33,512 bases of DNA from a candidate division WWE3 bacterium (GCA_014729135.1 WJKK01000001.1:695407-728918), one strand, 5' to 3'; positions 782-18,269 are shown, counted from the first letter of the stretch. Numbers and translations are program-made. The notes: generated from the sequence alone by a model not told the origin.

Positions 782-1507
782 ATGCGTAAACAAAGATTAA
801 GCATTGGAAAAGCTGCAGATTATCTAAATGTTTCCATAGATACGCTTAGAAGATGGGACAAAAAAGGAAAACTACCCGCTAACAGAACTAAAGGGGGTCA
901 TAGATTTTATTACAAGCACAATCTTGAACTTTACAAAAAAAACATATTTGCCCTCGCTAAGGAGTGGCTACTGAACAAACCCGCAGAACCCTCTCAAAAA
1001 TTTTATTGCCCTACAAGTCTAGAATTTAAACAAAAACTTTCACTATTAGAAAAAAATTTAAAAAGAAGAAAAAAGTTCGCAAAAGATTATCCATTAATTG
1101 TCGCAATAGCGGGGGAAATAGGAAACAACTCCTATGACCATAATCTAGGAAATTGGCCCGACATAAGCGGATCCTTTTTTGCTAATAACATAAATAAAAA
1201 ACAAATTGCCCTTGCCGACAGGGGGCAGGGGATTTTAAGGACATTAGGGAGAGTGAAGGAAAATATCCAAAGTGACAAAGAGGCTTTATACATTGCTTTT
1301 ACAAAGGTAATCTCAGGAAGAGCCCCTGAAACAAGAGGGAACGGCCTAAAATTTGTCCGCAATGTAATTCTACAAAGTGAAATAAAATTATCTCTAGAGT
1401 TTTACAGTGGAAAGGGAAGAGCAGTATTCATGAGTGGAAACGAGAAAGGGATGTTTAGTACAATAGACACGTATTATCCTGGATGTTTAGCATTATTAAA
1501 ATTTTAA
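782..1507 (+). CDS. MerR/excisionase-type HTH fused to a GHKL (HATPase_c-like, SpoIIAB/RsbW-like) ATP-binding domain
   Basis: N-terminus LSIGKAADYLNVSIDTLRRWDKKGKL...GGHRFY is an HTH_17/MerR-type motif. The C-terminal half carries an N-box-like EIGNNSYDHN, a G1-like ADRGQGI and a G2-like RGNGLKFV. Confidence 0.6.
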   Translation: MRKQRLSIGKAADYLNVSIDTLRRWDKKGKLPANRTKGGHRFYYKHNLELYKKNIFALAKEWLLNKPAEPSQKFYCPTSLEFKQKLSLLEKNLKRRKKFAKDYPLIVAIAGEIGNNSYDHNLGNWPDISGSFFANNINKKQIALADRGQGILRTLGRVKENIQSDKEALYIAFTKVISGRAPETRGNGLKFVRNVILQSEIKLSLEFYSGKGRAVFMSGNEKGMFSTIDTYYPGCLALLKF

Positions 1508-4614: not shown

Positions 4615-4911
4615 ATGAAGAAAAGAAAAAAGACCGCTTCCGTTAGGGAAGTACAACATAATCTGGCAAAGTATCTAGATATAGCTCAAAACTCCCCCAT
4701 CACAATAACAAAGTACGGAAAGGAGGCTGCCCTTTTAGTCAATCCTCAAAAATACGAAATTAGACAAAAAAGAGGAAAAAGAAACATAAACATCGAGGCT
4801 ATTATGAACTCGGAATTTATTGGAATGTATGAAAATAGAGAAGACTGGCAAGACAAAACTACCCCAGAGATAGCGGAAAAACTAAGGAGGGATGCTTGGT
4901 ATGGAAAATAG
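4615..4911 (+). CDS. Type II antitoxin, Phd/YefM-like
   Basis: ASVREVQHNLAKYLDIAQNSPITITKYGKEAALLVNPQKYE matches the Phd/YefM N-terminal pattern. It overlaps the downstream PIN gene by 20 nt. Confidence 0.7.
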   Translation: MKKRKKTASVREVQHNLAKYLDIAQNSPITITKYGKEAALLVNPQKYEIRQKRGKRNINIEAIMNSEFIGMYENREDWQDKTTPEIAEKLRRDAWYGK

Positions 4912-5275
4912 AATACTAGCAGATACTAGTGTACTAATAGCTCTGCAAAGAAGGGATCCGCAGGCAGTAAGCTTCTTTAGAAAACATATCTACAAAATAG
5001 ATATCTCGAGAATATCGGCTTGTGAATTTATCTACGGATCCAGAAACAAAGGAGAGAAAAACATCAATAAAGATTTCCTAGAGTGGATGTACATTATAGA
5101 AATTGATGAAAATATATCCGAACGAGCCTTCGAAATAATTGATGAATATGGCCTTAAAGTTAAAATGGGTGTATCGGACGCCTTAATTGCAGCCACAGCG
5201 CTAGAAGAAAATATGAAACTTTGGACACTTAATCAAAAGCATTTCAAAGAAATTAAAAATGTAGAGTTAATTTAA
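4892..5275 (+). CDS. vapC: PIN-domain toxin, VapC-like
   Basis: ILADTSVLIAL supplies the N-terminal acidic residue, and further conserved acidic positions follow (...EIDE..., ...GVSDALIAATA...). Size is 127 aa and it is coupled to the antitoxin gene. Confidence 0.75.
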   Translation: MLGMENRILADTSVLIALQRRDPQAVSFFRKHIYKIDISRISACEFIYGSRNKGEKNINKDFLEWMYIIEIDENISERAFEIIDEYGLKVKMGVSDALIAATALEENMKLWTLNQKHFKEIKNVELI

Positions 5276-5314: not shown

Positions 5315-6304
5315 ATGAAAGCAAAAGTAAAAAAACTACCAAAATCAACACTTCAATTAGAAATATCTGTTCCGGCTGAAGACGTCAAAAAAGCTTACGA
5401 CACTGTTCTGGAAAAAGTAGCTAAATCTGCAGACATCAAAGGCTTTAGAAAAGGAAAAGCTCCCAAAGACATGGTCGAGAAAAACCTTGATCCCTCTAAA
5501 CTACGGGGAGAAGTTGTTAATCACCTCCTGGAAAAATACTACATCCAGGCGCTAAAAGAGAACAAAATTAATCCTATCTCAAACCCCAAAGTGGAAATTC
5601 AAAAATTTGACATGGAAGAAGATTTTGAATTTACAGCTACTGTGGCGACTCGCCCGGAAGTTAAACTAGGCGACTATAAAAAAGCGCTTAAAAAGAAACT
5701 GGAAGAACGCCATAATGAAGTGAAAAAGCAAAAGGAGCAAGCACTAAAAGAAGGCAAGAAGATGCCGGAAATTCATGACCATCTGCACACACAAGAAATT
5801 ATCCGGACTATAACGGAAACGGCAGAAGTAGAAGTTCCTGATTTGCTTGTAGAAGATGAAATTGATCGTATGCGCGCACGTCTAGTGGATCAAATGCAAA
5901 ATATAGACATGGGCCTAGATGATTATCTTAAGGCTAAAAATCAAACTGCCGAGCAATTAAATGCGGAGTTTACAGAGCAAGCGGTGCAGAATTTAAAAGC
6001 GGAGTTTGTTTTGGCGCAGGCCATTACTGAAACAGATATTGAGGTTACGGATGAAGAGATAGAGGAAATGGCTAAGGCCTCAGGGGATCCTGAAGCAATT
6101 GAAAACCTTAAAGATCCGGCTAACAAGTGGTATATAAAAAATATTTTGGAAAAAAATAAGTTCTTAACGGATTTGATGGAGGAGTTGGAGGGGTCTTCGG
6201 AGGAGAAAGGCGAAAAGGAAGAGGGCGCGAAAGGAAAAAAGTCAGAAAACAAAGAGACTAAAAAGAAAAAAGAAGATAAAGTTAACAAAAAGGAGGAAAA
6301 ATAA
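5315..6304 (+). CDS. tig: Trigger factor, short form apparently lacking the FKBP/PPIase domain, with a K/E-rich tail
   Basis: The N-domain carries the ribosome-binding signature GFRKGKAP. The C-terminal arm domain is recognisable (VPDLLVEDEIDRM...). The protein is only 329 aa including an approximately 45-aa KE-rich tail. Confidence 0.85.
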   Translation: MKAKVKKLPKSTLQLEISVPAEDVKKAYDTVLEKVAKSADIKGFRKGKAPKDMVEKNLDPSKLRGEVVNHLLEKYYIQALKENKINPISNPKVEIQKFDMEEDFEFTATVATRPEVKLGDYKKALKKKLEERHNEVKKQKEQALKEGKKMPEIHDHLHTQEIIRTITETAEVEVPDLLVEDEIDRMRARLVDQMQNIDMGLDDYLKAKNQTAEQLNAEFTEQAVQNLKAEFVLAQAITETDIEVTDEEIEEMAKASGDPEAIENLKDPANKWYIKNILEKNKFLTDLMEELEGSSEEKGEKEEGAKGKKSENKETKKKKEDKVNKKEEK

Positions 6305-6900
6305 TGAACCAAAACTCACTAGTACCAATAGTTGTAGAAAAAAACGCCCAAGGAAATGAGCGTTCCTACGACATTTACTCCCGATTATTAAAAGACTTCA
6401 TAGTTTTTGTCACCGGACCCATCGAAATGGGCATGGCAAACACTTTTATTGCCCAAATGCTCTACTTAGAAAGCGAAGATCCTGAAAGACAAATTAACGT
6501 TTACATCAACTCTCCCGGAGGCGTCGCCTATGCGGGAAGAGCTATGTACGACACCATTCGCCATGTTAAAAACCCTGTAAGCACCATTAACGTAGGCCTT
6601 GCAGCTTCAGCAGGCGCCATGCTTTTGGCAGGAGGCAACGAAGGACTCCGTTATGGATTGCCGGGTAGTTTTACAATGATTCATCAGGTTTTAGGTGGAG
6701 TTGAAGGGCAGGCAACGGATGTGGAAATTGAGGCTCGTCATATGTTAAATTTGCGAAAACAGTATGCTCAGATTATTGCGGATAGAACAGGGCAAGATTT
6801 GAAGAAGGTTCAGGATGATATTGAGCGCAATAATTGGATGGATGCGGAGGAGTCTCTGAATTACGGTATAATCGATAAGATTATGGAACCTAAGGATTAG
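6304..6900 (+). CDS. clpP: ATP-dependent Clp protease proteolytic subunit with Asn in place of the catalytic Asp
   Basis: YDIYSRLLKD and YINSPGG are present. The Ser is in GLAASAG and the His in MIHQ. The Asp position (RDNF in S. aureus and B. subtilis ClpP) reads RNNW. The start overlaps the tig stop (ATAATG). Confidence 0.9.
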   Translation: MNQNSLVPIVVEKNAQGNERSYDIYSRLLKDFIVFVTGPIEMGMANTFIAQMLYLESEDPERQINVYINSPGGVAYAGRAMYDTIRHVKNPVSTINVGLAASAGAMLLAGGNEGLRYGLPGSFTMIHQVLGGVEGQATDVEIEARHMLNLRKQYAQIIADRTGQDLKKVQDDIERNNWMDAEESLNYGIIDKIMEPKD

Positions 6901-7083: not shown

Positions 7084-8346
7084 ATGCAGCGTTATTTTCA
7101 CGTTAAAAACCCCTGGTGGGAAAACAAATCCTTTAACACGGGAATAAAAAGACCCTACTACATTAAAAAACTCCAAAAAAACCTAAAGCAAGATTTGATG
7201 CAAATAATCACAGGTCTAAGAAGAGTAGGGAAAAGCACGATTGCCCTCCAACTAATAAATTCCATGATAAATGAAAATAAAATGGATCCCCAAAAAATAC
7301 TCTTCTTTTCCGTTGAAGAGCCCATAATTAAAGATACTCCAATAATAAAGATAATCAACGAATTTAGAGCAGAAAAAAATCTTAAAACCAATACTAAAAT
7401 TCATGTCTTCATAGACGAAATACAATTCAGAGAAGATTGGGAAAGAGAGATTAAGTCCCTTTACGATACTGAAAATATAAAATTCATACTCACAGGATCC
7501 TCTGCAATGCTTCTTTCAGAAAAGCTATCATATCTGACAGGACGCTATTTAAAAACGCAAATATATCCCCTAAATTTTGAAGAGTATCTAAATTTTAAAA
7601 AGGTTAAGACATCCAAAACAAACGAGCATCTTCTAAAAAAAGCGGCAAAAAATTTCCTTAAAACAGGAGGAATGCCTGAATTTGTATTAAAAAATCCCGA
7701 CAGATATCTAGAAACAACAGTAGAAAGCATCCTATTTAAGGATCTGGTTTCAAAATTTAAGCTTCGTAACCCTAAAGTTCTAACAGATCTTTTGTACTTA
7801 TTAGCTGACAGAGTGGGAACCACTTCAAGTGGAACAAAACTTTCAAATGTTTTGGAAATAAACAAAGATACTGTCATGACGTACCTCAACTATCTAAATA
7901 AAACTTTTATAACAGCAGAGCTGCCAAACTACACAACGTCAAGAAATAAAGAACTTTACAACCCGGCGAAAATTTTCTTTCAAGACACCGGAATAGCAAA
8001 CACATATGCAAGTAAATTTAATTATGGGGCTTTGGCGGAAAATGCAATTTACAATAAAATATCTCAAGAAATCGGGGAGGAGATGAGAGTAAAACTAGGC
8101 TACTGGTACGAGGAAAAGTCTGAAATTGATTTTATTTTACAGAGAAAGAAAAAGGTTACTGTAATAGAATCTAAAATGGTTAATACAATAGAGAACATAA
8201 ACTTTAAACCTTTGAGAAACCTGTTAAAGGATCAAAATGCGAATGAGATTATTTATGTCACAGAGGGCCTGGGGGGAATGGAAACCGTGGATAAGGCGGA
8301 TGTAAATTTCATTCCCTTGTATAAATTTTTGAAAGAGCCCCTCTAG
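7084..8346 (+). CDS. AAA-family ATPase (AAA_14 + DUF4143-type, COG1373-like)
   Basis: Walker A GLRRVGKST and Walker B-like HVFIDEIQ. The length and C-terminal region are typical of this widespread family of uncharacterised ATPases. Confidence 0.7.
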   Translation: MQRYFHVKNPWWENKSFNTGIKRPYYIKKLQKNLKQDLMQIITGLRRVGKSTIALQLINSMINENKMDPQKILFFSVEEPIIKDTPIIKIINEFRAEKNLKTNTKIHVFIDEIQFREDWEREIKSLYDTENIKFILTGSSAMLLSEKLSYLTGRYLKTQIYPLNFEEYLNFKKVKTSKTNEHLLKKAAKNFLKTGGMPEFVLKNPDRYLETTVESILFKDLVSKFKLRNPKVLTDLLYLLADRVGTTSSGTKLSNVLEINKDTVMTYLNYLNKTFITAELPNYTTSRNKELYNPAKIFFQDTGIANTYASKFNYGALAENAIYNKISQEIGEEMRVKLGYWYEEKSEIDFILQRKKKVTVIESKMVNTIENINFKPLRNLLKDQNANEIIYVTEGLGGMETVDKADVNFIPLYKFLKEPL

Positions 8347-9749: not shown

Positions 9750-9773
9750 AGCAGGCTTTAAGCCTGCTTTTTT
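9750..9773 (+). terminator. Intrinsic terminator (8-bp stem, 3-nt loop, T5)
   Basis: agcaggct tta agcctgct ttttt. It lies 234 nt after the GT4 stop and 110 nt before the tasA-like start. Confidence 0.7.
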
Positions 9774-9882: not shown

Positions 9883-10959
9883 ATGAAAAAGATTATAGCT
9901 AGCATAGCAACTATAGCTGTATTTGCTTCTGTAACTTATTTGGGAACTTCTGCACTATTTTCCGACACAGAAGAATCCTTGGACAATACTTTCACAACAG
10001 GAAGTATTGATATTTCAGTAGACGGTGAAAATCCTTGGGCACATTCGGAAGAGTACAATCTTACTGATATGAAGCCCGGTTACACCGACTACATGGAATT
10101 TGTAATCCATAACGTGGGAACAAATCCTGCTGAAATTACCAAGACGCTTTCAGACTTCACCGGATATGATGTAGTTACAACAGAACCCGAATGTGATGCT
10201 GAAAGTGGAACTGAGTGGACCTGGGATGAAGCATCAATGACCGGAGTATGTACCGGAAACACAGCAGTAACAGACTTGGAAAACGTTATCGACTACGACC
10301 TAATCGTAGAAGTTTATGACGTTAACCCTGATGAAGATGAAACTGCAGAACCTGTATGGATGCAGACCATCTACACAGAGGACCAGCCTGCTGATATGGC
10401 TCTCTTAGACGACCAGGCTATCCACTTGGGCATGCTTCCTGTAGGCTACTACATGAAAGTAACGCAAAGTTATCACATGGATGTAAACGCAGGAAACGAG
10501 TACCAAGCAGATGAGCTCTCCTTTGATATTCAACTTGCTGCAAATCAGCTACTGGCTGAAAATACAGTTAAGTTAGAAAATAAGGATGGAGATGATGACT
10601 GGATGCTAATCATGGATGACGCTATTGAAGGAACGTTGACCTATCAACTAAGAAGCCCAACTTTTGAGTTTGAATTTGATGGAACAGCTCCTTTAGCAAG
10701 CCGCAATTACGTTCTTGCAGCAGGATATGACGCTGACACTAACGTTGACACAAAACTAGGTGAAGGCACATCCGCAGCAGACGGAACCATTACCATTACA
10801 GGTGATGTTGAACTCGGCAAAGACATGAAAGACGTTAAAGTCTGGTTAGTACCTGCAGAAAACTGGACCGATGGAACAGGAATGACCGGCTGGGCCGGAA
10901 CACCTGGAAACTTCCTTTGGGAAACCAGCTTAATGTGGTACGAAGACACTAACAACTAG
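9883..10959 (+). CDS. TasA/camelysin-like secreted protein with SipW-cognate signal peptide (copy 1)
   Basis: The signal peptide ends in GTSALFSDTEESLDNTFTTGSIDISVDG. A strong SD (aaggaggtg) sits 7 nt upstream. MKVTQSYHMDVNAGNEYQADELSFDIQL is shared with copy 2. Confidence 0.8.
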   Translation: MKKIIASIATIAVFASVTYLGTSALFSDTEESLDNTFTTGSIDISVDGENPWAHSEEYNLTDMKPGYTDYMEFVIHNVGTNPAEITKTLSDFTGYDVVTTEPECDAESGTEWTWDEASMTGVCTGNTAVTDLENVIDYDLIVEVYDVNPDEDETAEPVWMQTIYTEDQPADMALLDDQAIHLGMLPVGYYMKVTQSYHMDVNAGNEYQADELSFDIQLAANQLLAENTVKLENKDGDDDWMLIMDDAIEGTLTYQLRSPTFEFEFDGTAPLASRNYVLAAGYDADTNVDTKLGEGTSAADGTITITGDVELGKDMKDVKVWLVPAENWTDGTGMTGWAGTPGNFLWETSLMWYEDTNN

Positions 10960-10975
10960 TTTAGTGACTTCTTTG

Positions 10976-11002
10976 GAGGTTCAATTAAAAAAATTGAACC
11001 TC
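10976..11002 (+). terminator. 11-bp hairpin after the first tasA-like gene (possible partial terminator)
   Basis: gaggttcaatt aaaaa aattgaacctc followed by ttat. Confidence 0.4.
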
Positions 11003-11010
11003 TTATAGAA

Positions 11011-11682
11011 GTGAACGAGATAAGTAAATTGGGTAAAAATAGGCAAAACAAAATGAAAACACTTAACAACCTAAAAAAACTAATAGGCACCTCCTACTGG
11101 ATCTTTGTAGGAATAATCCTCTTTTTTGGCCTACTAACAACTCTATCCTTAAGGGAGCTTCCCGGAGGAATTAGAGCATTTGTTGTTCAATCAGGATCCA
11201 TGGAACCTGCCATAAAAACCGGATCCGTTGTAGTAATAAAGCCTAAAGAAACTTACAAAATAGACGAAGTTATCACTTTTAAATTAAGACCCGATAGCAG
11301 CACAAAAACACCTAAAGATCTGGTTACACATAGAATCATTGAAAAAGCAGAGGATGAAGGCCGAAACACTTACCTAACAAAAGGAGATGCAAATGAGGAT
11401 GCCGATAGAGAAATGATCCGTGAAGATCAAATTTTGGGAAGGGTCTTTGTAAGTGTACCTTTAGTAGGGAAAATCCTGGCATTTTCGCAAACACAAGTAG
11501 GATTTATACTTTTGATAATACTTCCGGCCATTTTGATAATCTATACAGAACTTCAAAAAATCTTTAACAATCTCTTTAAGAAAAACTCCAAGGAAGGTGA
11601 CACCAAAAAAGAAACCCAAGCAAACACAGAAGACAACAATATTAAAAAAGAAACAAAAACCAAAGGAGGTGGAAATAAATGA
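11011..11682 (+). CDS. sipW: Signal peptidase I, archaeal/ER type (SipW-like, S26B)
   Basis: N-terminal TM, then the catalytic-Ser motif VQSGSMEPAIKTGSVVVIKP. It also has LVTHRII, KGDAN, a C-terminal TM and a K-rich tail. The track start is GTG 11011 and an alternative ATG is at 11053. Its stop overlaps the next ATG (ATGA). Confidence 0.85.
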   Translation: MNEISKLGKNRQNKMKTLNNLKKLIGTSYWIFVGIILFFGLLTTLSLRELPGGIRAFVVQSGSMEPAIKTGSVVVIKPKETYKIDEVITFKLRPDSSTKTPKDLVTHRIIEKAEDEGRNTYLTKGDANEDADREMIREDQILGRVFVSVPLVGKILAFSQTQVGFILLIILPAILIIYTELQKIFNNLFKKNSKEGDTKKETQANTEDNNIKKETKTKGGGNK

Positions 11683-12794
11683 AAAAGATATTAACAAGCT
11701 TACTAATAATTGCCGCAGTAGGAACATTCGGATACATCACAACAAGCGCATACTTTAGCGACACTGAAACCTCCGAGGAAAACACATTTACTGCCGGCAC
11801 TATAAACATTGCCGTTGACGGAGAGAGCCCCTGGACAACAACAGGAACCTTCTCTATTGACGATATGAAACCCGGATACGTATTTTACAGAGACGCCGAG
11901 ATTACAAACATTGGAAACAATCCTGCGGACATCTGGAAGAGACTATCTAACATGGCTTATGCTGACGGCGAAACTTCCGATGCAGAAGAGCCCGGCTCTG
12001 ATAACAACATTGGAGCAGTCATTCGCTACGACATGAGCATAGATGACGAGGTTTTGTTCGATGTAGATGCGGGATACGTCCTAGATGAGGGCCCACATCA
12101 ACTTGCAGAAACTACCGCGGTTGAGGGACTTTACATGTATTTAGGCCGCTTAGAGCCCGGAGAATCCATGACCGTAACACAAAGCTATCACATGGACCCA
12201 TCCGTTGGGAACTGGGCGCAAGGAGACATAATGACCTTGGATGTTGAGTTTTATGCTCAACAAACATCAGGAGGCGCTACAGCTCCTTCACCGGAACTGG
12301 AAGCTCTTGCAAAGGACAATCTGGACTACTTGGATATAGCAGCCTCAGACACAGCCGACATGCAACTTCATGATGCAAAAGGATGGCTGGATTATGCTCA
12401 GGGAGGCTATGGCGGACGTGACGGCGATGAAACTATCGCTATGGTAATGGGAGAAAACGGAGTCTGTGATGAAACCACAGAAAACGCAACTTTCATGATG
12501 TATGCAGGTGAAGCCACCGCTAACAACCTGGTACTTCGCCACTATGATGGGCAATCAGACGACTCCTTTGAGGTCTTTGTTGATGGAAATTCAGTTGGAA
12601 CCTATGCAAATCAGTACAACTCTGAAGATCCTTCTCACTGGATAACAGCAACATTCCCTGTCGACTTCACAGGATATGCTGAGGTGGAAATAGTAGCCAC
12701 AGGAGAACCCGGAAGCCTATGTGCTGCCGGAACTGACGGAACAGATTACTGGTATGGACAAGTTGCTCTAAATTGGGCTAAGATTACTGAGTAA
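11679..12794 (+). CDS. TasA/camelysin-like secreted protein with SipW-cognate signal peptide (copy 2)
   Basis: TTSAYFSDTETSEENTFTAGTINIAVDG. MTVTQSYHMDPSVGNWAQGDIMTLDVEF. It has an extra C-terminal domain relative to copy 1. Confidence 0.8.
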   Translation: MKKILTSLLIIAAVGTFGYITTSAYFSDTETSEENTFTAGTINIAVDGESPWTTTGTFSIDDMKPGYVFYRDAEITNIGNNPADIWKRLSNMAYADGETSDAEEPGSDNNIGAVIRYDMSIDDEVLFDVDAGYVLDEGPHQLAETTAVEGLYMYLGRLEPGESMTVTQSYHMDPSVGNWAQGDIMTLDVEFYAQQTSGGATAPSPELEALAKDNLDYLDIAASDTADMQLHDAKGWLDYAQGGYGGRDGDETIAMVMGENGVCDETTENATFMMYAGEATANNLVLRHYDGQSDDSFEVFVDGNSVGTYANQYNSEDPSHWITATFPVDFTGYAEVEIVATGEPGSLCAAGTDGTDYWYGQVALNWAKITE

Positions 12795-12814
12795 CCTCTA
12801 GTCGGTTTTTAGGG

Positions 12815-12836
12815 AGCCGGAGAAGTTTTTCCGGCT
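12815..12836 (+). terminator. Hairpin after the second tasA-like gene
   Basis: agccgga (12815-12821) pairs with tccggct (12830-12836), with an 8-nt T-rich loop. Confidence 0.3.
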
Positions 12837-12880: not shown

Positions 12881-14440
12881 ATGAATAAAACGATAAAAAA
12901 CATAATGTTAGTTTTAACTGCCTTGGGTGTTTTCAGCACTCTACAGCCTCAATATACTTGGGCAAGAGAGCCAAATATAAAATTTACAGACAAGGAAGAT
13001 CAAGAGGATATTTTGTTAGAAACTGAAAGTCTGGACATGGAAATGAGAGGAGGCCAGGACAACTTCGTAGAGGGAGACGATCTTTTCATAGGTGATACAA
13101 CGGCCAGGGACGTCTATATAAAAAATACAGGAACAACAGATTTCAAATATAAATCTTTTATCAAAGTAGGAGATGAAACTGACGAAAACCTTTGTGAAAA
13201 TTTAGAGCTCAAGGTTTGGTATAACAGATTTGATGAGAGCGGAAATAAACACGCAGAACTTAAGTACACAGGATCTTTGATGGATTTTGAAATGAATTTT
13301 GAGGGGGAGGACGAGGAACTTCAAATACCCAACGGTTACAGCTACGAAGAAAATCCAATGTATGCAGAAAAAGAACACTGGCTGTATTACAGAATTCAGG
13401 TCCCGGAGGAAGCTCCTTATGAAGTCTCACAAAAAGCATGTGACTTTGAAATCGTAACAATTGCATGGCAACAAGAGTTGATAGATGAGAATCAGGGCTT
13501 CTGGGATATCGAAAGTCTGCAATCCTCAATAACCACGGGAGATTGGACACCCTCTGCTCCCACGGGACTTAAAATCCTAAATCACAAAGAGGAAGAACTT
13601 GACTGTTCGGATCCGGAAAACCCTGCCATAACAAACAATAGAAACATTACTATAGACTGGACAGATAATCCTGAATTCGACTTAGAACATTATGACCTCG
13701 GAATCAAGGATAAGTTGGTACACGACGATTTCATAGAAGAATCTTTGAGACCAGCCACCGTAAGAGACGAGGATGGAGATTACAAATACAGAGTAAGGGC
13801 GGTAGACGAGGGCGGAAACATTAGCGAATGGTCTGATTGGTGTTATCTCATTTTAGACAGAACTATAGATGACGCCGAAGAGGGGGAAGTATTGATTAAT
13901 GAAGTCATGTGGTCGGGGTCCTCGGAAAATACGTCAGATGAGTGGATTGAGCTTTACAATGAGAGTGATAGAGAAATAAAACTTAAGAACTGGACCCTGT
14001 CAATTGGAGACGAAACAGAAATTACGTTGCCAGAAGATGAAGTAATCGAAGCACACAGCTATTTCCTAATCTCCAAGTACGATGAGGAAGATGGGAATTC
14101 AGCACTAAATGTGACACCCGATCTAGTTGCAGAAGAATTAAACTTAGAGGACGCCGGAAGCCGCCTAACTCTGAAAGATGCCTTCAACAACGAAATAGAC
14201 AGCATAGATGCATCGTCTGAATGGCCTGCGGGAGAAGTAAAAGAAGATCCCGAAATTCCTACAACATACCACTCCATGGAAAGAAGTGACGATCCCTCCA
14301 ACTGGCACACTTGTAAAGACAGCAGCTGCAATGATGCCATTTATTGGGATGTAACAACCTCGGAAGGAGAAGATCCAAACGAGGTGGGCACCAACTATGG
14401 AACGCCCGGATCAGAAAATTCACCGGAAGGGAGTAACTAA
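12881..14440 (+). CDS. Secreted multidomain protein: TasA-like N-domain, Fn3-like domain, lamin tail domain (LTD)
   Basis: Sec-type signal (..YTWA/RE). FIGDTTARDVYIKNTGTTDF...ACDFEIVTIAWQQ resembles the TasA-like sandwich. YKYRVRAVDEGGNISEWS is Fn3-like. VLINEVMWSGSSENTSDEWIELYNESDREIKLKNWTL is a typical LTD. Confidence 0.7.
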   Translation: MNKTIKNIMLVLTALGVFSTLQPQYTWAREPNIKFTDKEDQEDILLETESLDMEMRGGQDNFVEGDDLFIGDTTARDVYIKNTGTTDFKYKSFIKVGDETDENLCENLELKVWYNRFDESGNKHAELKYTGSLMDFEMNFEGEDEELQIPNGYSYEENPMYAEKEHWLYYRIQVPEEAPYEVSQKACDFEIVTIAWQQELIDENQGFWDIESLQSSITTGDWTPSAPTGLKILNHKEEELDCSDPENPAITNNRNITIDWTDNPEFDLEHYDLGIKDKLVHDDFIEESLRPATVRDEDGDYKYRVRAVDEGGNISEWSDWCYLILDRTIDDAEEGEVLINEVMWSGSSENTSDEWIELYNESDREIKLKNWTLSIGDETEITLPEDEVIEAHSYFLISKYDEEDGNSALNVTPDLVAEELNLEDAGSRLTLKDAFNNEIDSIDASSEWPAGEVKEDPEIPTTYHSMERSDDPSNWHTCKDSSCNDAIYWDVTTSEGEDPNEVGTNYGTPGSENSPEGSN

Positions 14441-16732
14441 ATGAAATTTACAAATAAAACAACAACAAAAAGAGTTTTGGGCTTAATTTTGATGCTGGGT
14501 GGAATATTCAGCTTAAGTGGCAGAGTTTATGCCGAAAACATAACCGTAACCTGCAACACAAATCCCGGAGACTGCGTAATGACTCCTTCTGCAGGAGCAG
14601 CACTATTTGCCGACACCGAAAACGACAACATAAACATGTTACCCGGACAAACCTCCCACAGAACAATTGATCTTATAAATAACTCCTCTGACACATGCGA
14701 AATTGTTTTAGGTGATGTAACAAACGTAAGACTAATAGGGGACACTCCCGAAACTTTTCCTTATGAACTTTGGACCGCTTTATCAGAAGGAGGACTTGCT
14801 TTTTACGGAGGACTTTCGTCAGGACAAGCTACAAGCACAAAAAGCTTAGGCGATTTATTTGACGGAGGGGACTTACCTATAACTAGCGTTCCCGGAGGAG
14901 ACAGCAAAACAGTGGACTGGCACGTAACGTTTAACCCTTTAGCCGGAAACGCTTACCAAAGCGCAGAAACTCGCTTTGACTTTGACATGCACTTTATGTG
15001 CGATGAAATTATGGAAACAACGGAATTTACCATCGCAAAGTTCACAAGCAGCTGGCCAACAAATCAAAATCCGGGAGACACCGTTACCTACACTTTAACA
15101 ATTCAGGCACCTGAAGAAAGAATCTACGATGTTGTGCTAACCGACCTTCCTCCTGAGACTTTTGAGTATGTAAATGGAAACTGGAACATTGCCTCAAACA
15201 TGCGCCTTTTAGCAGTAGGAGAGCCTACATATGCTTCTCCCGGTCAGTGGGATTTAGGGATGATGGAAGCCGGAGAAGTTTTAACGCTTACCTATGACGC
15301 TAAAATTTCTGACACTACCGAAGATGGGATTTATCCGGATTTAGCCTATGCTACGGGAAGAACTGCGGAAGAAGAGTTGGTTTATGCAGATTCTGTAGAT
15401 TCAGGATTTGAAATTAACGGAGGAGTTGTGGATGAAAACTTTGTAGGAACTCAAGTGAAAGTGAATCAGGAGCCTCCCGCTGAGGAAGCTGATATAGAAG
15501 TGGAAACGGAGGAGATTGAGGAGGAGGTTGAGGTTGAAGGCGAGGTCTTAGGATCTTCGGATCAGAGGCTTCCCGCTACAGGAGCTAGTTTATTTATTGG
15601 ATTAACCTGGATGCTTTCGATTTTAACGGGAGCAATGCTAATTTTTGTGAATAAGTTTAAAAAAGCAAAGGCTTTTAGTAAGGCGCCAATAATAGTAGTA
15701 GTAGTAGTAGTAGCAGCCATCTTCCTGGGAGTGGTGGTTTCGGGAAGAGCACATGCGCAAACGAGCACATTTGTCCTAAGAGTATCCGAGCCAGAAACTC
15801 CAACTAACAAGGAATTTAACGTTGAATTTGTAGTACTGGATCCTGCAGGTGACTCCGGTGAAAACATAACTGTAACGTGTGACCTTAAGAAACCGGGACA
15901 AACCTTCTCTACTTTAGATACGGCAAACTTAATTAAGGGAGGAGACTCCGGACTTTGCAAAATTTCAGAAAGCTTGTTAACAACAGATGGAACTTATGAA
16001 GTGAAAATTACGGCACAAAATTCCGGTGCGAGCAAGGCCGACACTGTATCCGTAGTCTACGACGGCAACGGACCCGGCAAACCCAAATGGATTGAAAAAG
16101 ACAAAAAATCCAGCTGTGAATACGACGTAAAATTTAAAACTTCCGATGACGGCGGTGAAACCTCCTATGTAGAAGTGTACAGATCCGACGACAAAGAATT
16201 CACCGTAAGCCCCTCCAGCAGAGTCAGAACCGTTTCAATAGGCTCCAACGAGGAACATGAGTTTACTCACAATTTGTATGGAGGCGACTGCGGAAGTTCT
16301 TACTATGCAGTTAGAGCTTTTGATGACGCCGGCAACTATTCGGATGTTCGCGTTGAAGAAGTTGAAGACATTGTGATTAAGGAGGTTTTTGTGGGGTCTG
16401 ATGAGGGAGGCGAGACAGAAGAAGGTGGAGAAGGCGCGGAATCCGGTGCAATCTTTTTGGAAGGAGGCGCCGGCTTGACTGAAGGAGAATTGGAAGGTGA
16501 GGTAGGCTTGGAAGAGGGAGGAGAAGCCGGAGAGGTGGCAGGTGAAACTACAGAAACTGAGGAGGGTGAAAGTGGGGAAGAGGCCAGTGGCGAAACTGCA
16601 GAAAATGAAGAAGGTGTTTTGGGTACTGCTGACAAGAAATTCCCCTGGTTCTTACTAGTTCCTGTTATACTTGTGGCCGGTTTTGTACTTTTAAGATCCA
16701 AGCGCAAAAAAGATGGAATCAGTTTCTCCTAA
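14441..16732 (+). CDS. Bipartite surface protein: TasA-like + DUF11-like domains, internal LPATG sorting signal, second signal-like segment, Fn3-like domain, G/E-rich linker, C-terminal TM anchor
   Basis: Signal peptide ..RVYA/EN. LPATG is at aa 377-381 (nt 15569-15583), followed by a hydrophobic stretch and KFKKAK. Then come IIVVVVVVAAIFLGVVVSGRAHA/QT, YYAVRAFDDAGNYSDV and the C-terminal FPWFLLVPVILVAGFVLLRSKRKK. Confidence 0.75.
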   Translation: MKFTNKTTTKRVLGLILMLGGIFSLSGRVYAENITVTCNTNPGDCVMTPSAGAALFADTENDNINMLPGQTSHRTIDLINNSSDTCEIVLGDVTNVRLIGDTPETFPYELWTALSEGGLAFYGGLSSGQATSTKSLGDLFDGGDLPITSVPGGDSKTVDWHVTFNPLAGNAYQSAETRFDFDMHFMCDEIMETTEFTIAKFTSSWPTNQNPGDTVTYTLTIQAPEERIYDVVLTDLPPETFEYVNGNWNIASNMRLLAVGEPTYASPGQWDLGMMEAGEVLTLTYDAKISDTTEDGIYPDLAYATGRTAEEELVYADSVDSGFEINGGVVDENFVGTQVKVNQEPPAEEADIEVETEEIEEEVEVEGEVLGSSDQRLPATGASLFIGLTWMLSILTGAMLIFVNKFKKAKAFSKAPIIVVVVVVAAIFLGVVVSGRAHAQTSTFVLRVSEPETPTNKEFNVEFVVLDPAGDSGENITVTCDLKKPGQTFSTLDTANLIKGGDSGLCKISESLLTTDGTYEVKITAQNSGASKADTVSVVYDGNGPGKPKWIEKDKKSSCEYDVKFKTSDDGGETSYVEVYRSDDKEFTVSPSSRVRTVSIGSNEEHEFTHNLYGGDCGSSYYAVRAFDDAGNYSDVRVEEVEDIVIKEVFVGSDEGGETEEGGEGAESGAIFLEGGAGLTEGELEGEVGLEEGGEAGEVAGETTETEEGESGEEASGETAENEEGVLGTADKKFPWFLLVPVILVAGFVLLRSKRKKDGISFS
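15693..15713 (+). repeat. Trinucleotide repeat (TAG)7 / (GTA)6 inside the surface-protein ORF
   Basis: aatagtagtagtagtagtagtagca encodes the VVVVVV run of the internal hydrophobic segment. Confidence 0.9.
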
Positions 16733-17357
16733 GGGCTTTAAAAAAGCAGGCCTTATATTTTTGGGCTTAGGACTCTTGGCAGGCCTGGTTCAATATTTTC
16801 CTGTTATTAAGGCTGAAATAGGATATCAATTTAAGGGAAACGCAAAAGAAACTGCGGAAGTTCGCTTAAGTGCTCCTTTAATAACCAATCAAGAGGAAGG
16901 GGCCCCGAAAGATTCCACTAAAGTCATTATCCCGGAAAGCAAAAGCTTTGGCCTGGTTATAAAAAAACTGGGAATTAACACTCCGATAATTGCTCAAGTG
17001 GATCCGTTTGATTCTAAAGTCTATCAAGAGGCTCTTGCTAAGGGAATTGCACATGCTAAAGACACTGCTCTGCCTAACGCAGGAGGAAATACAGTACTTT
17101 TTGCACATTCTTCGGATAACTTTTACAATGCTAATCGATATAATGCGGTCTTTTACCTATTAAATAAGCTGGAAACGGGGGATGAGATTCATGTGGCTTT
17201 TGAGAATAAGCTTTACGAGTATGAGGTGGCTGAAAAGAAGGTGGTTTCTCCGGAGGAGATGAGTTATATGGAGTCTTCTAAGGAGTCTAAGTTGACGTTA
17301 ATTACATGCTGGCCTCCCGGAACTACGTTGAAGAGGCTTGTTGTGGTTGCAAAATAG
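16713..17357 (+). CDS. Sortase family transpeptidase
   Basis: N-terminal TM, His in VLFAHS, catalytic Cys in LTLITCWP, and Arg in KRLVVVA. It overlaps the LPATG protein gene by 20 nt. Confidence 0.85.
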   Translation: MESVSPKGFKKAGLIFLGLGLLAGLVQYFPVIKAEIGYQFKGNAKETAEVRLSAPLITNQEEGAPKDSTKVIIPESKSFGLVIKKLGINTPIIAQVDPFDSKVYQEALAKGIAHAKDTALPNAGGNTVLFAHSSDNFYNANRYNAVFYLLNKLETGDEIHVAFENKLYEYEVAEKKVVSPEEMSYMESSKESKLTLITCWPPGTTLKRLVVVAK

Positions 17358-17450: not shown

Positions 17451-18269
17451 ATGACCAAAAAAGCTGCCTACATCAAAACCCTAATAACCGCCTCCACCAT
17501 CTTTGTAGTAAGCTACTTTCTAACCCACTCCCTCATAAACTACTTTGAAACTCAAGGATACTTTGCGCTCAACTTTAACTTAATCTCCGGTGTAGGCTTA
17601 TTAATCTTAGGGTTAACCTATGCCGTAAGCCTTTCGTCACCTGCTTGGGGAGAATGGAGCCAGTTTATAATCGTTCCTTTACCTTTTATTTTGGGAGTTT
17701 ACTTAAATTTAGTCACTTTGGAACCGGCAAATGCTTTAGTTTTTTCCATTTTAATTTTTTTAATCTTGAGCTTCTTTATAGAAAAATCCATTAACTTGGA
17801 GCAGTTGCTAGCTAAAAACATTCCTGTAGTTTTTTTGCGGCCGGGAATAAAAGGATTACTGCTCTGTATTTCAATGGTGGCAGCTACAGTGGTGCTTTTA
17901 AATCCAAGGGATAAAGCTCAGGAGTTAACCGAGACCGTACAAGAGGCGGCTAATTCGCGCGTTTCTAAGTTTTTTGATAACGGGATTTTTACGGAAAATC
18001 CTGAAGTAGGGGCTTTGCTGGAATATACTTCATTGGAACAAAGTTTAGGGGAGGAGATTACTACGCAGGTTAAGAGTGCTATTGAGCCTTATCGGCATTT
18101 GATTAATATTTTTATGGCGGTGTTTATCTTTTTGGCTATGCAAGGATTTAATGCTGTTGTTTATTTGGTTTATTCTATTAGTATAGGGTTTTTGTTTTGG
18201 ATTGCACGTAAAACGGGCTTTGTAAAGAAAAAAACGGAGTTGATTGAAAAAGAGGTTTTAAGGTTTTAA
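17451..18269 (+). CDS. Polytopic membrane protein, hypothetical
   Basis: 272 aa with at least 6 hydrophobic spans. No family recognised. Confidence 0.6.
   Translation: MTKKAAYIKTLITASTIFVVSYFLTHSLINYFETQGYFALNFNLISGVGLLILGLTYAVSLSSPAWGEWSQFIIVPLPFILGVYLNLVTLEPANALVFSILIFLILSFFIEKSINLEQLLAKNIPVVFLRPGIKGLLLCISMVAATVVLLNPRDKAQELTETVQEAANSRVSKFFDNGIFTENPEVGALLEYTSLEQSLGEEITTQVKSAIEPYRHLINIFMAVFIFLAMQGFNAVVYLVYSISIGFLFWIARKTGFVKKKTELIEKEVLRF

What the first reader, a model, noticed from the sequence alone, without database searches (positions are those of the whole stretch)
14441..16732. One ORF, two surface modules: internal LPATG sorting signal followed by a second signal-peptide-like segment and a second, degenerate sorting signal
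Seen: LPATG at aa 377-381 is followed by a hydrophobic stretch (ASLFIGLTWMLSILTGAMLIF) and a basic patch (KFKKAK). That is a complete sortase sorting signal, but it sits in the middle of a 763-aa ORF. Immediately afterwards comes IIVVVVVVAAIFLGVVVSGRAHA/QT, which looks like the h- and c-regions of a signal peptide with an AxA site. A second ectodomain follows (Fn3-like plus a G/E-rich linker), then a terminal TM and RSKRKK. The two ends are homologous: EGEVLGSSDQRLPATG versus EEGVLGTADKKFPWF. The G/C-skew polarity also runs through two cycles in this ORF (G27/C2 at 15481-15540, G12/C11 at 15781-15840, G30/C5 at 16381-16440). Inference: this is a fusion of two tandem genes. Sortase cleavage at T/G would release module 1 to the wall or fibre, leaving module 2 as a separate membrane-anchored protein with N-out, in, out, in topology. 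Alternatively, an internal start (ATG 15635, MLIFVNKFKK...) gives an independent secreted product.
Basis: partly seen in the sequence, partly recalled or inferred. Interest (0 to 1): 0.7.

Follow-up and report, generated by a model that had tools for sequence, protein, structure and literature searches.

The report
Fused sortase-substrate and membrane-partner polyprotein
This gene from an ultra-small (CPR/Patescibacteria) bacterium joins two neighbouring surface-protein genes into one reading frame and keeps a complete sortase cut-and-anchor signal and a second export signal in the middle, so one precursor is probably cut into a wall-linked adhesin and a membrane-anchored partner.

Summary
ORF 14441-16732 (763 aa) has LPATG at aa 377-381, followed by a hydrophobic segment, KFKKAK, a second hydrophobic segment ending AHA/Q, a two-domain Ig/Fn3 ectodomain, a Gly/Glu linker, a third TM and RSKRKK. 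It is not an assembly artefact. All 10 homologues (32-57% identity) share the layout, with L, P, T and G invariant. A module-2 profile finds 406 clusters at E<=1e-30. Of the top 157 representatives, 111 are fused in this way.

The fusion inference is supported. In 76 Patescibacteria species genomes, 33 loci are fused and 38 are split. In split loci, gene A ends LPxTG-TM-RRKYA-stop, and gene B usually starts 5 nt before that stop with its own signal peptide. A sortase gene lies directly downstream in about 66 of 71 loci, and here it overlaps the ORF end.

The likely mechanism is processing by sortase at T380/G381 and by signal peptidase at A438/Q439. This would give the same two products as the split genes.

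The "second degenerate sorting signal" is not supported: FPW-like motifs occur in only 18 of 155 C-termini and no LPxTG-like motif occurs in any. A conserved VLG motif at both ends is real and unexplained. An internal start is not general.

The closest precedent is the streptococcal Zmp/IgA1-protease N-terminal LPXTG anchor.

The parts
14441..16732 (+). 763-aa polyprotein ORF (module 1 + internal sorting signal + internal signal peptide + module 2 + membrane anchor)
   Evidence: Homologues with the same layout.
14441..14533 (+). N-terminal Sec-type signal peptide, aa 1-31 (K-rich n-region, h-region VLGLILMLGGIFSL, c-region SGRVYA/E)
   Evidence: Read directly from the sequence. Its c-region SGRVYA/E resembles the internal SGRAHA/Q.
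14534..15010 (+). Module 1 N-terminal domain (aa 32-190), TasA-like fold
   Evidence: AF2 model pLDDT 78. Best Foldseek PDB hit is TasA 5OF2 (E 6.5e-4, the only hit at E<=1e-3); second is the archaeal bundling pilus 7UEG. A weak hhalign match covers the C-terminal GNxxQ strand of the window's camelysin-like ORF. No Pfam M73 hit.
15029..15460 (+). CLIPPER/DUF11 (CnaA-like) domain, aa ~197-340. This is the conserved C-terminal domain of module 1 across the family.
   Evidence: PF01345 at aa 207-306, 33 bits against a 24.6 cutoff. K200 92%, D235 95% and D300 100% conserved in 111 relatives. Domain described in PMC12617251.
15473..15568 (+). Acidic linker ending in the conserved EVLG motif (VLG aa 369-371)
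   Evidence: VLG invariant. [VIL]LG lies 3-5 aa before LPxTG in 104/111 relatives.
15569..15583 (+). LPATG sortase motif, aa 377-381. Predicted cleavage between T380 and G381.
   Evidence: L, P, T and G invariant. 85/111 LPATG; the rest LPSTG, LPGTG, LPETG, LPQTG, LPDTG, LPVTG or LPKTG.
15584..15652 (+). TM1 (aa 382-404), hydrophobic part of the sorting signal, out-to-in
   Evidence: KD 2.1. Median 25 aa in 111 fused relatives.
15653..15682 (+). Basic cytoplasmic loop KFKKAKAFSK (aa 405-414). Corresponds to the sorting-signal tail fused to the n-region of the second signal peptide.
   Evidence: loop net charge median +4, minimum +1. Split loci show tail-stop/ATG at this point.
15683..15754 (+). 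TM2 / internal signal peptide h- and c-regions (aa 415-438), ending AHA. Predicted signal-peptidase cleavage A438/Q439.
   Evidence: KD 3.2. An AxA-type site is visible at the same place in all junctions listed. A439 column nearly invariant. Homologous to the N-terminal signal peptide of stand-alone gene B.
15755..16375 (+). Module 2 core (aa 439-645): two Ig/Fn3-like domains, each with a conserved Cys pair (C480/C506, C559/C617)
   Evidence: AF2 pLDDT 89. Foldseek top hits are tandem FN3 pairs. Cysteines invariant. No Pfam or NCBIfam model reaches its cut-off.
16376..16642 (+). Gly/Glu-rich linker of module 2, with a second VLG motif (aa 726-728)
   Evidence: [VIL]LG in 131/146 module-2 linkers against 8% in shuffles.
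16643..16729 (+). TM3 (aa 735-753) plus basic tail RSKRKKDGISFS: C-terminal membrane anchor of module 2
   Evidence: TM plus K/R tail in the module-2 C-termini listed; no LPxTG-like motif in 155 C-termini.
16713..17357 (+). Sortase gene, overlapping the polyprotein ORF end by 20 nt. N-terminal TM; TLITC active-site motif.
   Evidence: PF04203 2.5e-25. TIGR01076 59.7 bits against a 39.35 cutoff; no class model reaches its cutoff. PDB sortases at 1e-9. Downstream of module 2 in ~66/71 loci.
12881..14440 (+). Upstream secreted Fn3 + lamin-tail-domain protein. Its stop abuts the polyprotein ATG. Conserved neighbour in close relatives.
   Evidence: PF00932 3.6e-15. Synteny in L001, L002, L004, L005, L033, L036 and L039.
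9883..12794 (+). Two TasA/camelysin-like genes with SipW-type signals (9883-10959, 11679-12794) flanking a SipW-type signal peptidase (11011-11682). Same strand, tightly packed with the genes above.
   Evidence: PF12389, TIGR04088 and TIGR02228 2e-30.

Best explanation
The ORF is a natural polyprotein made by in-frame fusion of two translationally coupled neighbour genes of a cassette that is widespread in Patescibacteria (CPR). The cassette consists of gene A, gene B and a sortase. Gene A is a surface protein whose last ~190 aa are a CLIPPER/DUF11 domain, an acidic linker, VLG and a canonical LPxTG-TM-basic sorting signal. Gene B has a signal peptide, two Ig/Fn3 domains, an acidic linker and a C-terminal TM.

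Proposed course of events; every step is inferred:
1. The N-terminal signal peptide starts Sec export.
2. Module 1 (TasA-like domain plus CLIPPER domain) crosses the membrane.
3. TM1 stops transfer and the K-rich loop stays in the cytoplasm.
4. TM2 re-starts translocation as an internal signal peptide.
5. Module 2 crosses and TM3 anchors it.
6. The co-encoded membrane sortase cleaves LPAT/G and transfers module 1 to its acceptor, most simply the peptidoglycan precursor; a class A PBP is encoded in the window.
7. Signal peptidase cleaves after AHA438, leaving module 2 as a type I membrane protein.
8. The 58-residue TM hairpin (G381-A438) is discarded.

The end products are the same as in relatives that keep two genes. 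The tight 1:1 coupling of A and B (8-nt overlap or fusion) argues that module 2 is a stoichiometric membrane-side partner of the anchored protein, not a second sortase substrate. In this operon, module 1 may tether a TasA-like fibre made by the upstream TasA-like/SipW genes.
For: Shown by computation:
- The architecture is real and conserved.
- 111 of the 157 best module-2 cluster representatives are fused, each with LPxTG, TM, a positive loop, an h-region and a small -3/-1 site.
- 33 fused and 38 split loci in 76 species genomes. In split loci gene A ends ...LPATG-TM-RRKYA-stop, and gene B usually begins 5 nt before that stop with M-K/R-h-region-AxA.
- L014 is fused but nested among split sisters, and keeps gene B's relic ATG (SMFHKF versus MFKQF) after upstream indels.
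- A rough NJ tree needs at least 8 fused/split changes.
- A sortase gene lies directly downstream in ~66/71 loci and overlaps the ORF here.
- This is the only LPxTG in the window.
- The c-regions of the two signal peptides are alike (SGRVYA/E and SGRAHA/Q).
- Module 2 is two Ig/Fn3 domains.
- The module 1 N-domain has a TasA-like fold, and TasA-like/SipW genes lie upstream.
- A PBP gene is present.

Precedent: streptococcal Zmp proteases have SP-LPXTG-two hydrophobic segments-second signal peptidase site (PMC3518915).
Against: - No experimental evidence for either cleavage exists; everything rests on sequence signals and on equivalence with the split forms.
- The sortase does not reach any class-specific cutoff, so its nucleophile is unknown.
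- The -3/-1 test I applied is lenient. No SignalP-type predictor was available.
- The function of module 2 is not established. No invariant Lys was found (K553 is Lys in 87% of relatives) and there is no family annotation.
- The TasA-like assignment is moderate only (E 6.5e-4, TM 0.48-0.51, pLDDT 78, no Pfam hit).
- The NJ tree is rough, so the number and direction of fusion or fission events are uncertain.
Confidence: 0.7

Rival explanations
1. Two products arise by translation rather than proteolysis. An internal start (ATG 15635, M399, or a nearby GTG) yields an independent secreted/anchored module 2. The upstream reading frame yields module 1 with its sorting signal. The in-frame fusion is then incidental.
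For: ATG 15635 is preceded by GGGAG. The product MLIFVNKFKKAK...AHA/Q would be a plausible signal peptide. 44/111 fused relatives keep a Met in the loop, in some cases clearly gene B's relic start.
Against: M399 lies inside TM1 and is not conserved. The window has lost the Met at the relic position after the basic patch. 67/111 fused forms have no Met in the loop, for example L004 and L005. The SD-like GGGAG is only 2 nt from the ATG. No promoter-like site lies between 15123 and 17100. Even with internal initiation, full-length translation would still occur because there is no stop codon.
Confidence: 0.12
2. Cut-and-rejoin. The sortase transfers module 1 (Thr380) not to peptidoglycan but onto module 2, either onto the new N-terminus made by signal peptidase or onto a lysine such as K553. 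The TM hairpin is excised and a covalent module 1-module 2 complex stays anchored by TM3.
For: A, B and the sortase are strictly co-located. A and B are coupled 1:1 or fused. The best, sub-threshold sortase class hit is class C, the pilin-polymerising class. K553 is Lys in 87% of relatives and sits at the interdomain junction. A VLG motif is shared by both linkers.
Against: No Lys is invariant in module 2; K553 is Val in 15/157. The residues after the AxA site are variable. No pilin motif was recognised. The class C cutoff is not met (71.7 against 160 bits).
Confidence: 0.1
3. The protein stays as one uncleaved three-TM polypeptide. The internal LPATG and AxA are relics of the fusion with no present function.
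For: No direct evidence of cleavage exists. Fusions can be recent (L014).
Against: Relics would decay. Instead LPxTG, TM1, the positive loop, the h-region and the -3/-1 site are kept in all 111 fused representatives, down to ~30% identity, and L, P, T and G are invariant. The sortase gene is retained directly downstream of fused genes with no other local substrate.
Confidence: 0.06
4. Sequencing or assembly frameshift artefact that joined two genes.
For: Split versions differ from fused ones by small indels near an 8-nt gene overlap, so a 1-nt error could mimic a fusion.
Against: The fused layout is seen in independent assemblies from JGI, ENA, Logan and NCBI, in 33 GTDB species genomes and in 111 cluster representatives. 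The closest relatives (53-55% identity) are all fused.
Confidence: 0.02

Closest known systems
Streptococcal zinc metalloproteases Zmp (IgA1 protease, ZmpB, ZmpC, ZmpD) with an atypical N-terminal LPXTG anchor (PMC3518915, citing Bender & Weiser 2006)
   Same: Same order of signals: signal peptide, LPXTG, two hydrophobic segments. The second segment is proposed to act as a second signal peptide with a signal-peptidase site (S2), followed by a large ectodomain. Both have an LPXTG that is not at the C-terminus.
   Different: In Zmp the segment before LPXTG is short, whereas here it is a full 345-aa two-domain surface protein. The Zmp ectodomain is an M26 protease without a C-terminal TM, whereas here it is a two-Ig/Fn3 protein with its own TM anchor. 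There is no sequence relationship. Here split two-gene versions exist, showing origin by gene fusion. The phylum differs (Patescibacteria versus Bacillota).
Canonical sortase-dependent LPXTG surface proteins (Gram_pos_anchor, PF00746/TIGR01167)
   Same: N-terminal signal peptide, LPATG, a ~23-aa hydrophobic segment, a basic patch, an adjacent sortase gene, and a CnaA-like (CLIPPER/DUF11) stalk domain. The split relatives are canonical members.
   Different: The sorting signal lies 380 residues from the C-terminus and is followed by another exported protein.
Sortase-assembled pilus loci (pilins plus class C sortase)
   Same: Operon of Ig-like surface proteins with a dedicated sortase. The best sortase class hit is class C. 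A membrane-side basal component is conceivable.
   Different: The class C cutoff is not met. No pilin motif or invariant Lys was found. Only one LPxTG protein per locus. The partner protein lacks a sorting signal.
Polyproteins matured by signal peptidase at internal signal sequences (flavivirus structural polyprotein; Bradyrhizobium fbcH cytochrome b/c1 precursor; both from my own knowledge, not checked here)
   Same: A TM hairpin whose second helix serves as the signal sequence for the next module and is cut by signal peptidase.
   Different: Those use no sortase and are unrelated proteins. The chance Pfam hit to the flavivirus E stem/anchor at aa 382-424 (E 0.042) reflects only the TM hairpin.
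TasA/TapA/SipW biofilm-fibre system of Bacillus subtilis and TasA-like archaeal bundling pili
   Same: The operon has two TasA/camelysin-like genes with SipW-type signals and a SipW-type peptidase. The module 1 N-domain best matches the TasA fold (5OF2), then 7UEG.
   Different: B. subtilis has no sortase-anchored TasA-like protein in that operon. The fold match is moderate and there is no Pfam M73 hit for module 1.
Pam pilus system of CPR bacteria (bioRxiv 10.64898/2026.03.03.709456)
   Same: It is CPR-specific and has membrane-anchored accessory proteins (PamC/PamD) built of two beta-sandwich domains plus a C-terminal TM, like module 2.
   Different: Pam assembly is sortase-independent donor-strand exchange. 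Module 2's Foldseek hits are generic tandem FN3, not PapD-like chaperones.

Membership tests
Sortase-dependent LPXTG surface protein (canonical sorting signal) | N-terminal signal peptide | tested here: met
   aa 1-31: K-rich n-region, hydrophobic core, SGRVYA/E. Read from the sequence; no predictor was run.
Sortase-dependent LPXTG surface protein (canonical sorting signal) | LPXTG motif followed by a hydrophobic segment and a positively charged tail | tested here: met
   LPATG 377-381, hydrophobic 382-404, KFKKAK 405-410. Invariant in homologues. The PF00746 hit is weak (E 0.0045, 17.3 bits against a cutoff of 20).
Sortase-dependent LPXTG surface protein (canonical sorting signal) | Sorting signal at the extreme C-terminus | tested here: not met
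   353 residues follow the basic patch. The feature is met in 38 split relatives.
Sortase-dependent LPXTG surface protein (canonical sorting signal) | Cognate sortase present | tested here: met
   PF04203 2.5e-25; the gene overlaps the ORF end. Conserved synteny.
Sortase-dependent LPXTG surface protein (canonical sorting signal) | Cleavage between T and G and covalent linkage to peptidoglycan | not testable with these tools
   Needs biochemistry or mass spectrometry.
Zmp-type N-terminal LPXTG anchor (streptococcal M26 proteases) | LPXTG followed by two hydrophobic segments and a second signal-peptidase site | tested here: met
   Family description in PMC3518915.
Zmp-type N-terminal LPXTG anchor (streptococcal M26 proteases) | LPXTG close to the N-terminus and an M26 zinc-metalloprotease ectodomain | tested here: not met
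   LPATG is at aa 377. There is no peptidase domain in the Pfam or NCBIfam scans. Module 2 is tandem Ig/Fn3.
Sortase-assembled pilin / class C sortase system | Class C sortase | tested here: not met
   NF033745 scores 71.7 bits against a cutoff of 160. Only the generic TIGR01076 passes.
Sortase-assembled pilin / class C sortase system | Conserved acceptor lysine (pilin motif) | tested here: inconclusive
   No invariant Lys in module 2; the best is K553 at 87%. K200 in the CLIPPER domain (92%) is more likely an intramolecular isopeptide residue.
CLIPPER/DUF11 (PF01345) CnaA-like domain | Pfam model above the gathering score | tested here: met
   33 bits against 24.6, aa 207-306. TIGR01451 scores 21.1 against 24, below its cutoff.
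TasA/camelysin (Peptidase_M73) family, for the module 1 N-domain | Sequence-model match and SipW-type signal peptide | tested here: not met
   No PF12389 or TIGR04088 hit for this ORF. hhalign gives probability 3.6% only.
TasA/camelysin (Peptidase_M73) family, for the module 1 N-domain | TasA-like jelly-roll fold | tested here: inconclusive
   Foldseek best hit is TasA 5OF2 (E 6.5e-4, TMq 0.48), then 7UEG. The model has pLDDT 78 from 8 sequences.

The most novel reading that the evidence does not exclude
The cassette is a two-enzyme protein 'cut-and-rejoin' device. Signal peptidase exposes the N-terminus of module 2, or a lysine at its interdomain hinge is used. The dedicated sortase then ligates Thr380 of module 1 onto it. 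The TM hairpin is excised from the precursor, and a covalently re-joined adhesin-stalk-anchor molecule is left in the membrane of a CPR cell. The VLG motifs in both linkers would serve as sortase docking elements. This would be a sortase used for intramolecular splicing or membrane anchoring rather than wall anchoring.
Probability: 0.08. Interest if true: 0.85.

Novelty: new variant of a known kind. Interest (0 to 1): 0.58.

Why it matters
Sortase sorting signals are treated as C-terminal by definition, and annotation pipelines look for them there. Here a complete sorting signal sits in the middle of a protein, in a family with hundreds of sequence clusters across the CPR. The fused and split states have interconverted more than once. 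Together these give a natural 'Rosetta stone' that links an LPxTG adhesin to an uncharacterised two-Ig-domain membrane protein and a dedicated sortase.

If the predicted processing is right, several things follow. It would be a bacterial example of polyprotein maturation that combines a transpeptidase with signal peptidase. It would point to a stoichiometric partner needed for surface-protein anchoring in ultra-small, host-attached bacteria whose envelopes are barely studied. It would also give a concrete, testable handle (peptide substrate, recombinant sortase, tagged precursor) on CPR surface biogenesis.

Practically, gene callers and domain annotators should not assume that such ORFs are frameshift errors.

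Tried and rejected
- **Assembly artefact:** rejected. The fused layout appears in independent assemblies and in 111 clusters.
- **Second degenerate sorting signal at the C-terminus:** rejected at family level. No LPxTG-like motif in 0/155 C-termini; FPW-like motif in 18/155.
- **Acceptor lysine in module 2:** no invariant Lys found.
- **Family models for module 2:** Pfam and NCBIfam gave only sub-threshold noise, such as InlK_D3, PKD and MXAN_2561.
- **Sequence link of the module 1 N-domain to TasA:** no Pfam hit. hhalign probability is 3.6%. The PDB profile search found nothing. Only the fold search points to TasA.
- **Internal promoter or terminator near the junction:** counts are no higher than in shuffles. 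No promoter-like site lies between 15123 and 17100. The terminator-like hit at 15567-15586 is weak and within chance.
- **Sortase class:** no class-specific NCBIfam cutoff is reached. PDB hits are spread over classes A, C and D.
- **Literature:** 'internal LPXTG' returned 0 papers. 'sortase + Patescibacteria + LPXTG' and 'sortase + candidate phyla radiation' returned nothing describing this architecture. Bender & Weiser 2006 is not held.
- **Second word-indexed homologue search with the alignment:** added only 7 proteins. The exhaustive representative search was needed.
- **G/C skew 'two cycles':** real counts, but explained by the Glu/Gly codon content of the two linkers.
Full report

Yes. 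ORF 14441..16732 (+) encodes 763 aa. A direct read and a Kyte-Doolittle scan place the features as follows:
- LPATG at aa 377-381 (nt 15569-15583).
- A hydrophobic segment at aa 382-404.
- KFKKAK at aa 405-410.
- A very hydrophobic second segment, IIVVVVVVAAIFLGVVV, followed by SGRAHA/Q (aa 415-438/439).
- A third hydrophobic segment (TM3, aa 735-753) followed by RSKRKK.

ATG 15635 is M399. They correspond to the GAR/GGN codons of the two acidic or Gly-rich linkers before each anchor. The N-terminal signal peptide ends SGRVYA/E, very like the internal SGRAHA/Q. This LPATG is the only L[PA]xTG in a plausible gene of the whole window.

**2. Gene context**

The ORF lies in a tight same-strand block:

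| Coordinates | Gene |
|---|---|
| 9883-10959 | TasA/camelysin-like, SipW-type signal |
| 11011-11682 | SipW-type signal peptidase (TIGR02228, 2e-30) |
| 11679-12794 | Second TasA/camelysin-like gene |
| 12881-14440 | Secreted Fn3 + lamin-tail-domain protein; its stop abuts the ATG at 14441 |
| 14441-16732 | The polyprotein ORF |
| 16713-17357 | Sortase (PF04203, 2.5e-25), overlapping the ORF end by 20 nt |
| 17451-18269 | 272-aa multi-TM protein with no family hit |

Housekeeping genes follow (ThrRS, IF3, L20, PheST, a class A PBP, TyrRS, RecG). The sortase passes only the generic sortase model. The best class-specific hit is class C, at 71.7 bits against a cutoff of 160.

**3. Not an artefact: a conserved family**

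Ten homologues at 32-57% identity, from JGI, ENA, Logan and NCBI, all have the same fused layout. In their alignment L377, P378, T380, G381 and V369-L370-G371 are invariant. The residue after the AxA site is nearly invariant, and both Cys pairs of module 2 are invariant. Contigs of three homologues show the same order: LTD protein, fused gene, overlapping sortase, 272-aa membrane protein. In the most distant one, at least the overlapping sortase is present.

An exhaustive profile search with the module 2 core (aa 439-645) found 1606 cluster representatives at E<=1e-3 and 406 at E<=1e-30. Of the 157 representatives held:
- 111 carry module 2 far inside a longer protein (513 to >3000 aa), immediately preceded by LPxTG (85 are LPATG).
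- About 38 are stand-alone proteins of 300-370 aa with their own N-terminal signal peptide.

In all 111 fused forms, LPxTG is followed by:
- a hydrophobic segment, median 25 aa;
- a loop of net positive charge (median +4, minimum +1);
- a second hydrophobic segment (KD >= 1.9);
- small residues at -3/-1 just before module 2. That last test is lenient, but the listed junctions look like ordinary AxA c-regions.

**4. Split versus fused**

A scan of one genome per species (GTDB) returned 76 loci. By their record titles or gene content, all are Patescibacteria: WWE3, Roizman-, Gottesman-, Davies-, Levy-, Woese-, Moran-, Nomura- and Dojkabacteria and others. Several are labelled Gammaproteobacteria or Pseudomonadales in the record title.

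I mapped module 1 (aa 191-381), module 2 and the sortase onto these loci with tblastn and read the junctions:
- 33 loci are fused, 38 are split and 5 are incomplete.
- In split loci, gene A ends with a textbook sorting signal, for example ...EVLGASTELPATG-TM-RRKYA-stop.
- Gene B usually starts 5 nt before that stop codon (an 8-nt overlap) with M-K/R-rich n-region, h-region and AxA, followed by the conserved L-x-V-R-[ILV]-x-x-P start of module 2.
- The fused loop therefore corresponds to the tail of A joined to the n-region of B.
- The sortase gene follows module 2 on the same strand in about 66 of 71 loci.

L014 is fused but sits among split sisters (L053, L055, L058) in a module 2 tree. It retains gene B's start as an in-frame Met (SMFHKF versus MFKQF) after small indels upstream. 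A rough NJ tree needs at least 8 fused/split changes, with fused forms on the deeper branches. I treat the number and direction of events as provisional. Recurrence is clear.

**5. What the modules are**

Module 1 here consists of:
- An N-terminal domain (aa 32-190). Its AF2 model (pLDDT 78) best matches B. subtilis TasA (5OF2, E 6.5e-4, the only hit at E<=1e-3), then the TasA-like archaeal bundling pilus 7UEG.
- A CLIPPER/DUF11 CnaA-like domain (PF01345, 33 bits). This domain class is known from fibrillar adhesin stalks and often carries an intramolecular isopeptide bond (PMC12617251). K200, D235 and D300 are 92-100% conserved.

Across the family, only the last ~190 aa of gene A are conserved: CLIPPER, acidic linker, VLG and LPxTG. 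The N-terminal passenger varies from nothing to about 2800 aa.

Module 2 is two Ig/Fn3-like domains (AF2 pLDDT 89; Foldseek top hits are tandem FN3 pairs). A low-complexity acidic linker of about 76 aa (median), a TM and a basic tail follow. No Pfam or NCBIfam model reaches its cut-off for it.

**6. The 'second sorting signal'**

At family level, the C-terminus of module 2 is a TM plus a K/R tail. None of 155 C-termini has an LPxTG-like motif, and [FS]PW[FTVY] occurs in only 18 (the window's close relatives and WWE3). I therefore read it as a plain membrane anchor.

What is real and unexplained is a [VIL]LG motif in both pre-anchor linkers:
- It lies 3-5 aa before LPxTG in 104/111 fused forms (shuffle expectation 3%).
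- It lies a median of 19 aa before TM3 in 131/146 module-2 tails (shuffle expectation 8%, maximum 14%).

**7. Mechanism**

Best explanation, confidence about 0.7. The precursor is exported through its N-terminal signal peptide. TM1 acts as stop-transfer and the basic loop stays inside. TM2 re-initiates translocation in signal-peptide orientation. TM3 anchors the end. This gives out-in-out-in, consistent with the positive-inside rule.

The adjacent sortase cleaves LPAT/G and moves module 1 to its acceptor. Signal peptidase cleaves AHA/Q. The 58-residue hairpin is discarded.

All of these steps are inferred. Three lines of argument support them:
- The products would be identical to those of the two-gene relatives.
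- All signals are maintained in fused genes down to ~30% identity.
- Streptococcal Zmp proteases provide a precedent. They have SP-LPXTG-two hydrophobic segments-second signal-peptidase site (PMC3518915).

The 1:1 coupling of A and B, by overlap or by fusion, suggests that module 2 is a stoichiometric membrane-side partner of the anchored protein. Its exact role is open: docking, presentation to the sortase, or acceptor. The TasA-like N-domain, with TasA-like/SipW genes upstream, suggests that in this organism module 1 may tether a TasA-type fibre. This is a lead, not a result.

**8. Rivals**

- **Internal initiation at M399 (about 0.12).** M399 is not conserved and lies inside TM1. Only 44/111 fused forms have any Met in the loop. 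The GGGAG is 2 nt from the ATG. No promoter-like site lies nearby. It could still add a minor product.
- **Ligation of module 1 onto module 2, cut-and-rejoin (about 0.1).** Attractive given the coupling and the class C-like sortase. However, no Lys is invariant (K553 is 87% Lys and Val in 15/157), and the residues after AxA vary.
- **Uncleaved three-TM protein with relic motifs (about 0.06).** Contradicted by the conservation.
- **Artefact (about 0.02).** Contradicted by many independent assemblies.

**9. Novelty and verdict**

I found no paper describing this architecture in CPR bacteria. A 2026 preprint on CPR Pam pili describes membrane-anchored two-domain chaperones with a C-terminal TM. 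That is worth comparing with module 2, but the system is sortase-independent.

The finding is a new variant of a known kind: a sortase substrate with an internal sorting signal. The streptococcal Zmp anchor is the only comparable case I found in these searches. What is new is an origin by gene fusion that comparative data demonstrate, a wide distribution in Patescibacteria, and a conserved uncharacterised partner protein.

It is wrong on the second sorting signal. The internal start is unlikely to be the main route.

Noticed in passing
window 9883-12794 (+): Two TasA/camelysin-like genes with SipW-type signal peptides flank a SipW-type (archaeal-type) signal peptidase. A terminator-like hairpin at 12802-12820 follows the second one. 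A strong terminator-like hairpin (9750-9768) and promoter-like sites (9635, 9855) precede the block. This looks like a TasA-type fibre operon in a CPR bacterium that continues into the LTD, polyprotein and sortase genes.
   Followed up: partly
window 15545-15553 and 16616-16624; family-wide in P0001-P0161: A [VIL]LG motif is conserved in both pre-anchor linkers. It lies 3-5 aa before LPxTG in 94% of relatives and a median of 19 aa before the C-terminal TM of module 2 in 90%, against 3-8% in shuffles. Its function is unknown.
   Followed up: partly
window 17451-18269 (+): A 272-aa multi-TM protein with no Pfam or NCBIfam hit is conserved immediately downstream of the sortase in the close relatives (L001, L002 and L004; 56-62% identity). 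It is not found in the wider family.
   Followed up: partly
window 12881-14440 (+): A secreted protein with an Fn3-like segment (YKYRVRAVDEGGNISEWS) and a lamin-tail domain, with no anchor. Its stop codon abuts the polyprotein start. It is a conserved upstream neighbour in L001, L002, L004, L005, L033, L036 and L039.
   Followed up: partly
L037, L049, L067 (junction regions): Some fused relatives carry variant motifs in place of LPxTG: LQNTG, LQVTG and LAVTG (the last resembles the class E LAxTG motif). L037 and L067 have no sortase hit in the fetched flank, and in L049 the only hit lies upstream of the fused gene.
   Followed up: no
L016, L021, L025, L028, L030, L038, L040, L041 and others: About 25 of the GTDB records carrying this Patescibacteria-type cassette are titled 'uncultured Gammaproteobacteria' or 'Pseudomonadales'. 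These are probably submitter or placeholder labels rather than true taxonomy.
   Followed up: no
P0036, P0049, P0136 and others; L011, L016, L019: Gene A/module 1 ranges from about 200 aa to about 2800 aa, and fused proteins reach 3151 aa. Only the last ~190 aa are conserved. The CLIPPER-LPxTG-module 2-sortase unit behaves as an anchoring cassette for very different passenger domains (SpaA-like, SdrD_B and others).
   Followed up: partly
window 4892-5275 (+), 7084-8346 (+), 782-1507 (+): A PIN-domain protein (possible toxin of a toxin-antitoxin pair), an AAA_14/DUF4143 ATPase and a MerR-family regulator lie upstream of the surface-protein block. Trigger factor and ClpP lie in between (5315-6900).
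   Followed up: no
window 14441-16732, aa 382-424: A chance Pfam hit to the flavivirus E stem/anchor (E 0.042) falls exactly on the TM1-loop-TM2 hairpin. It is an analogy of layout (a TM hairpin whose second helix is an internal signal sequence), not homology.
   Followed up: yes
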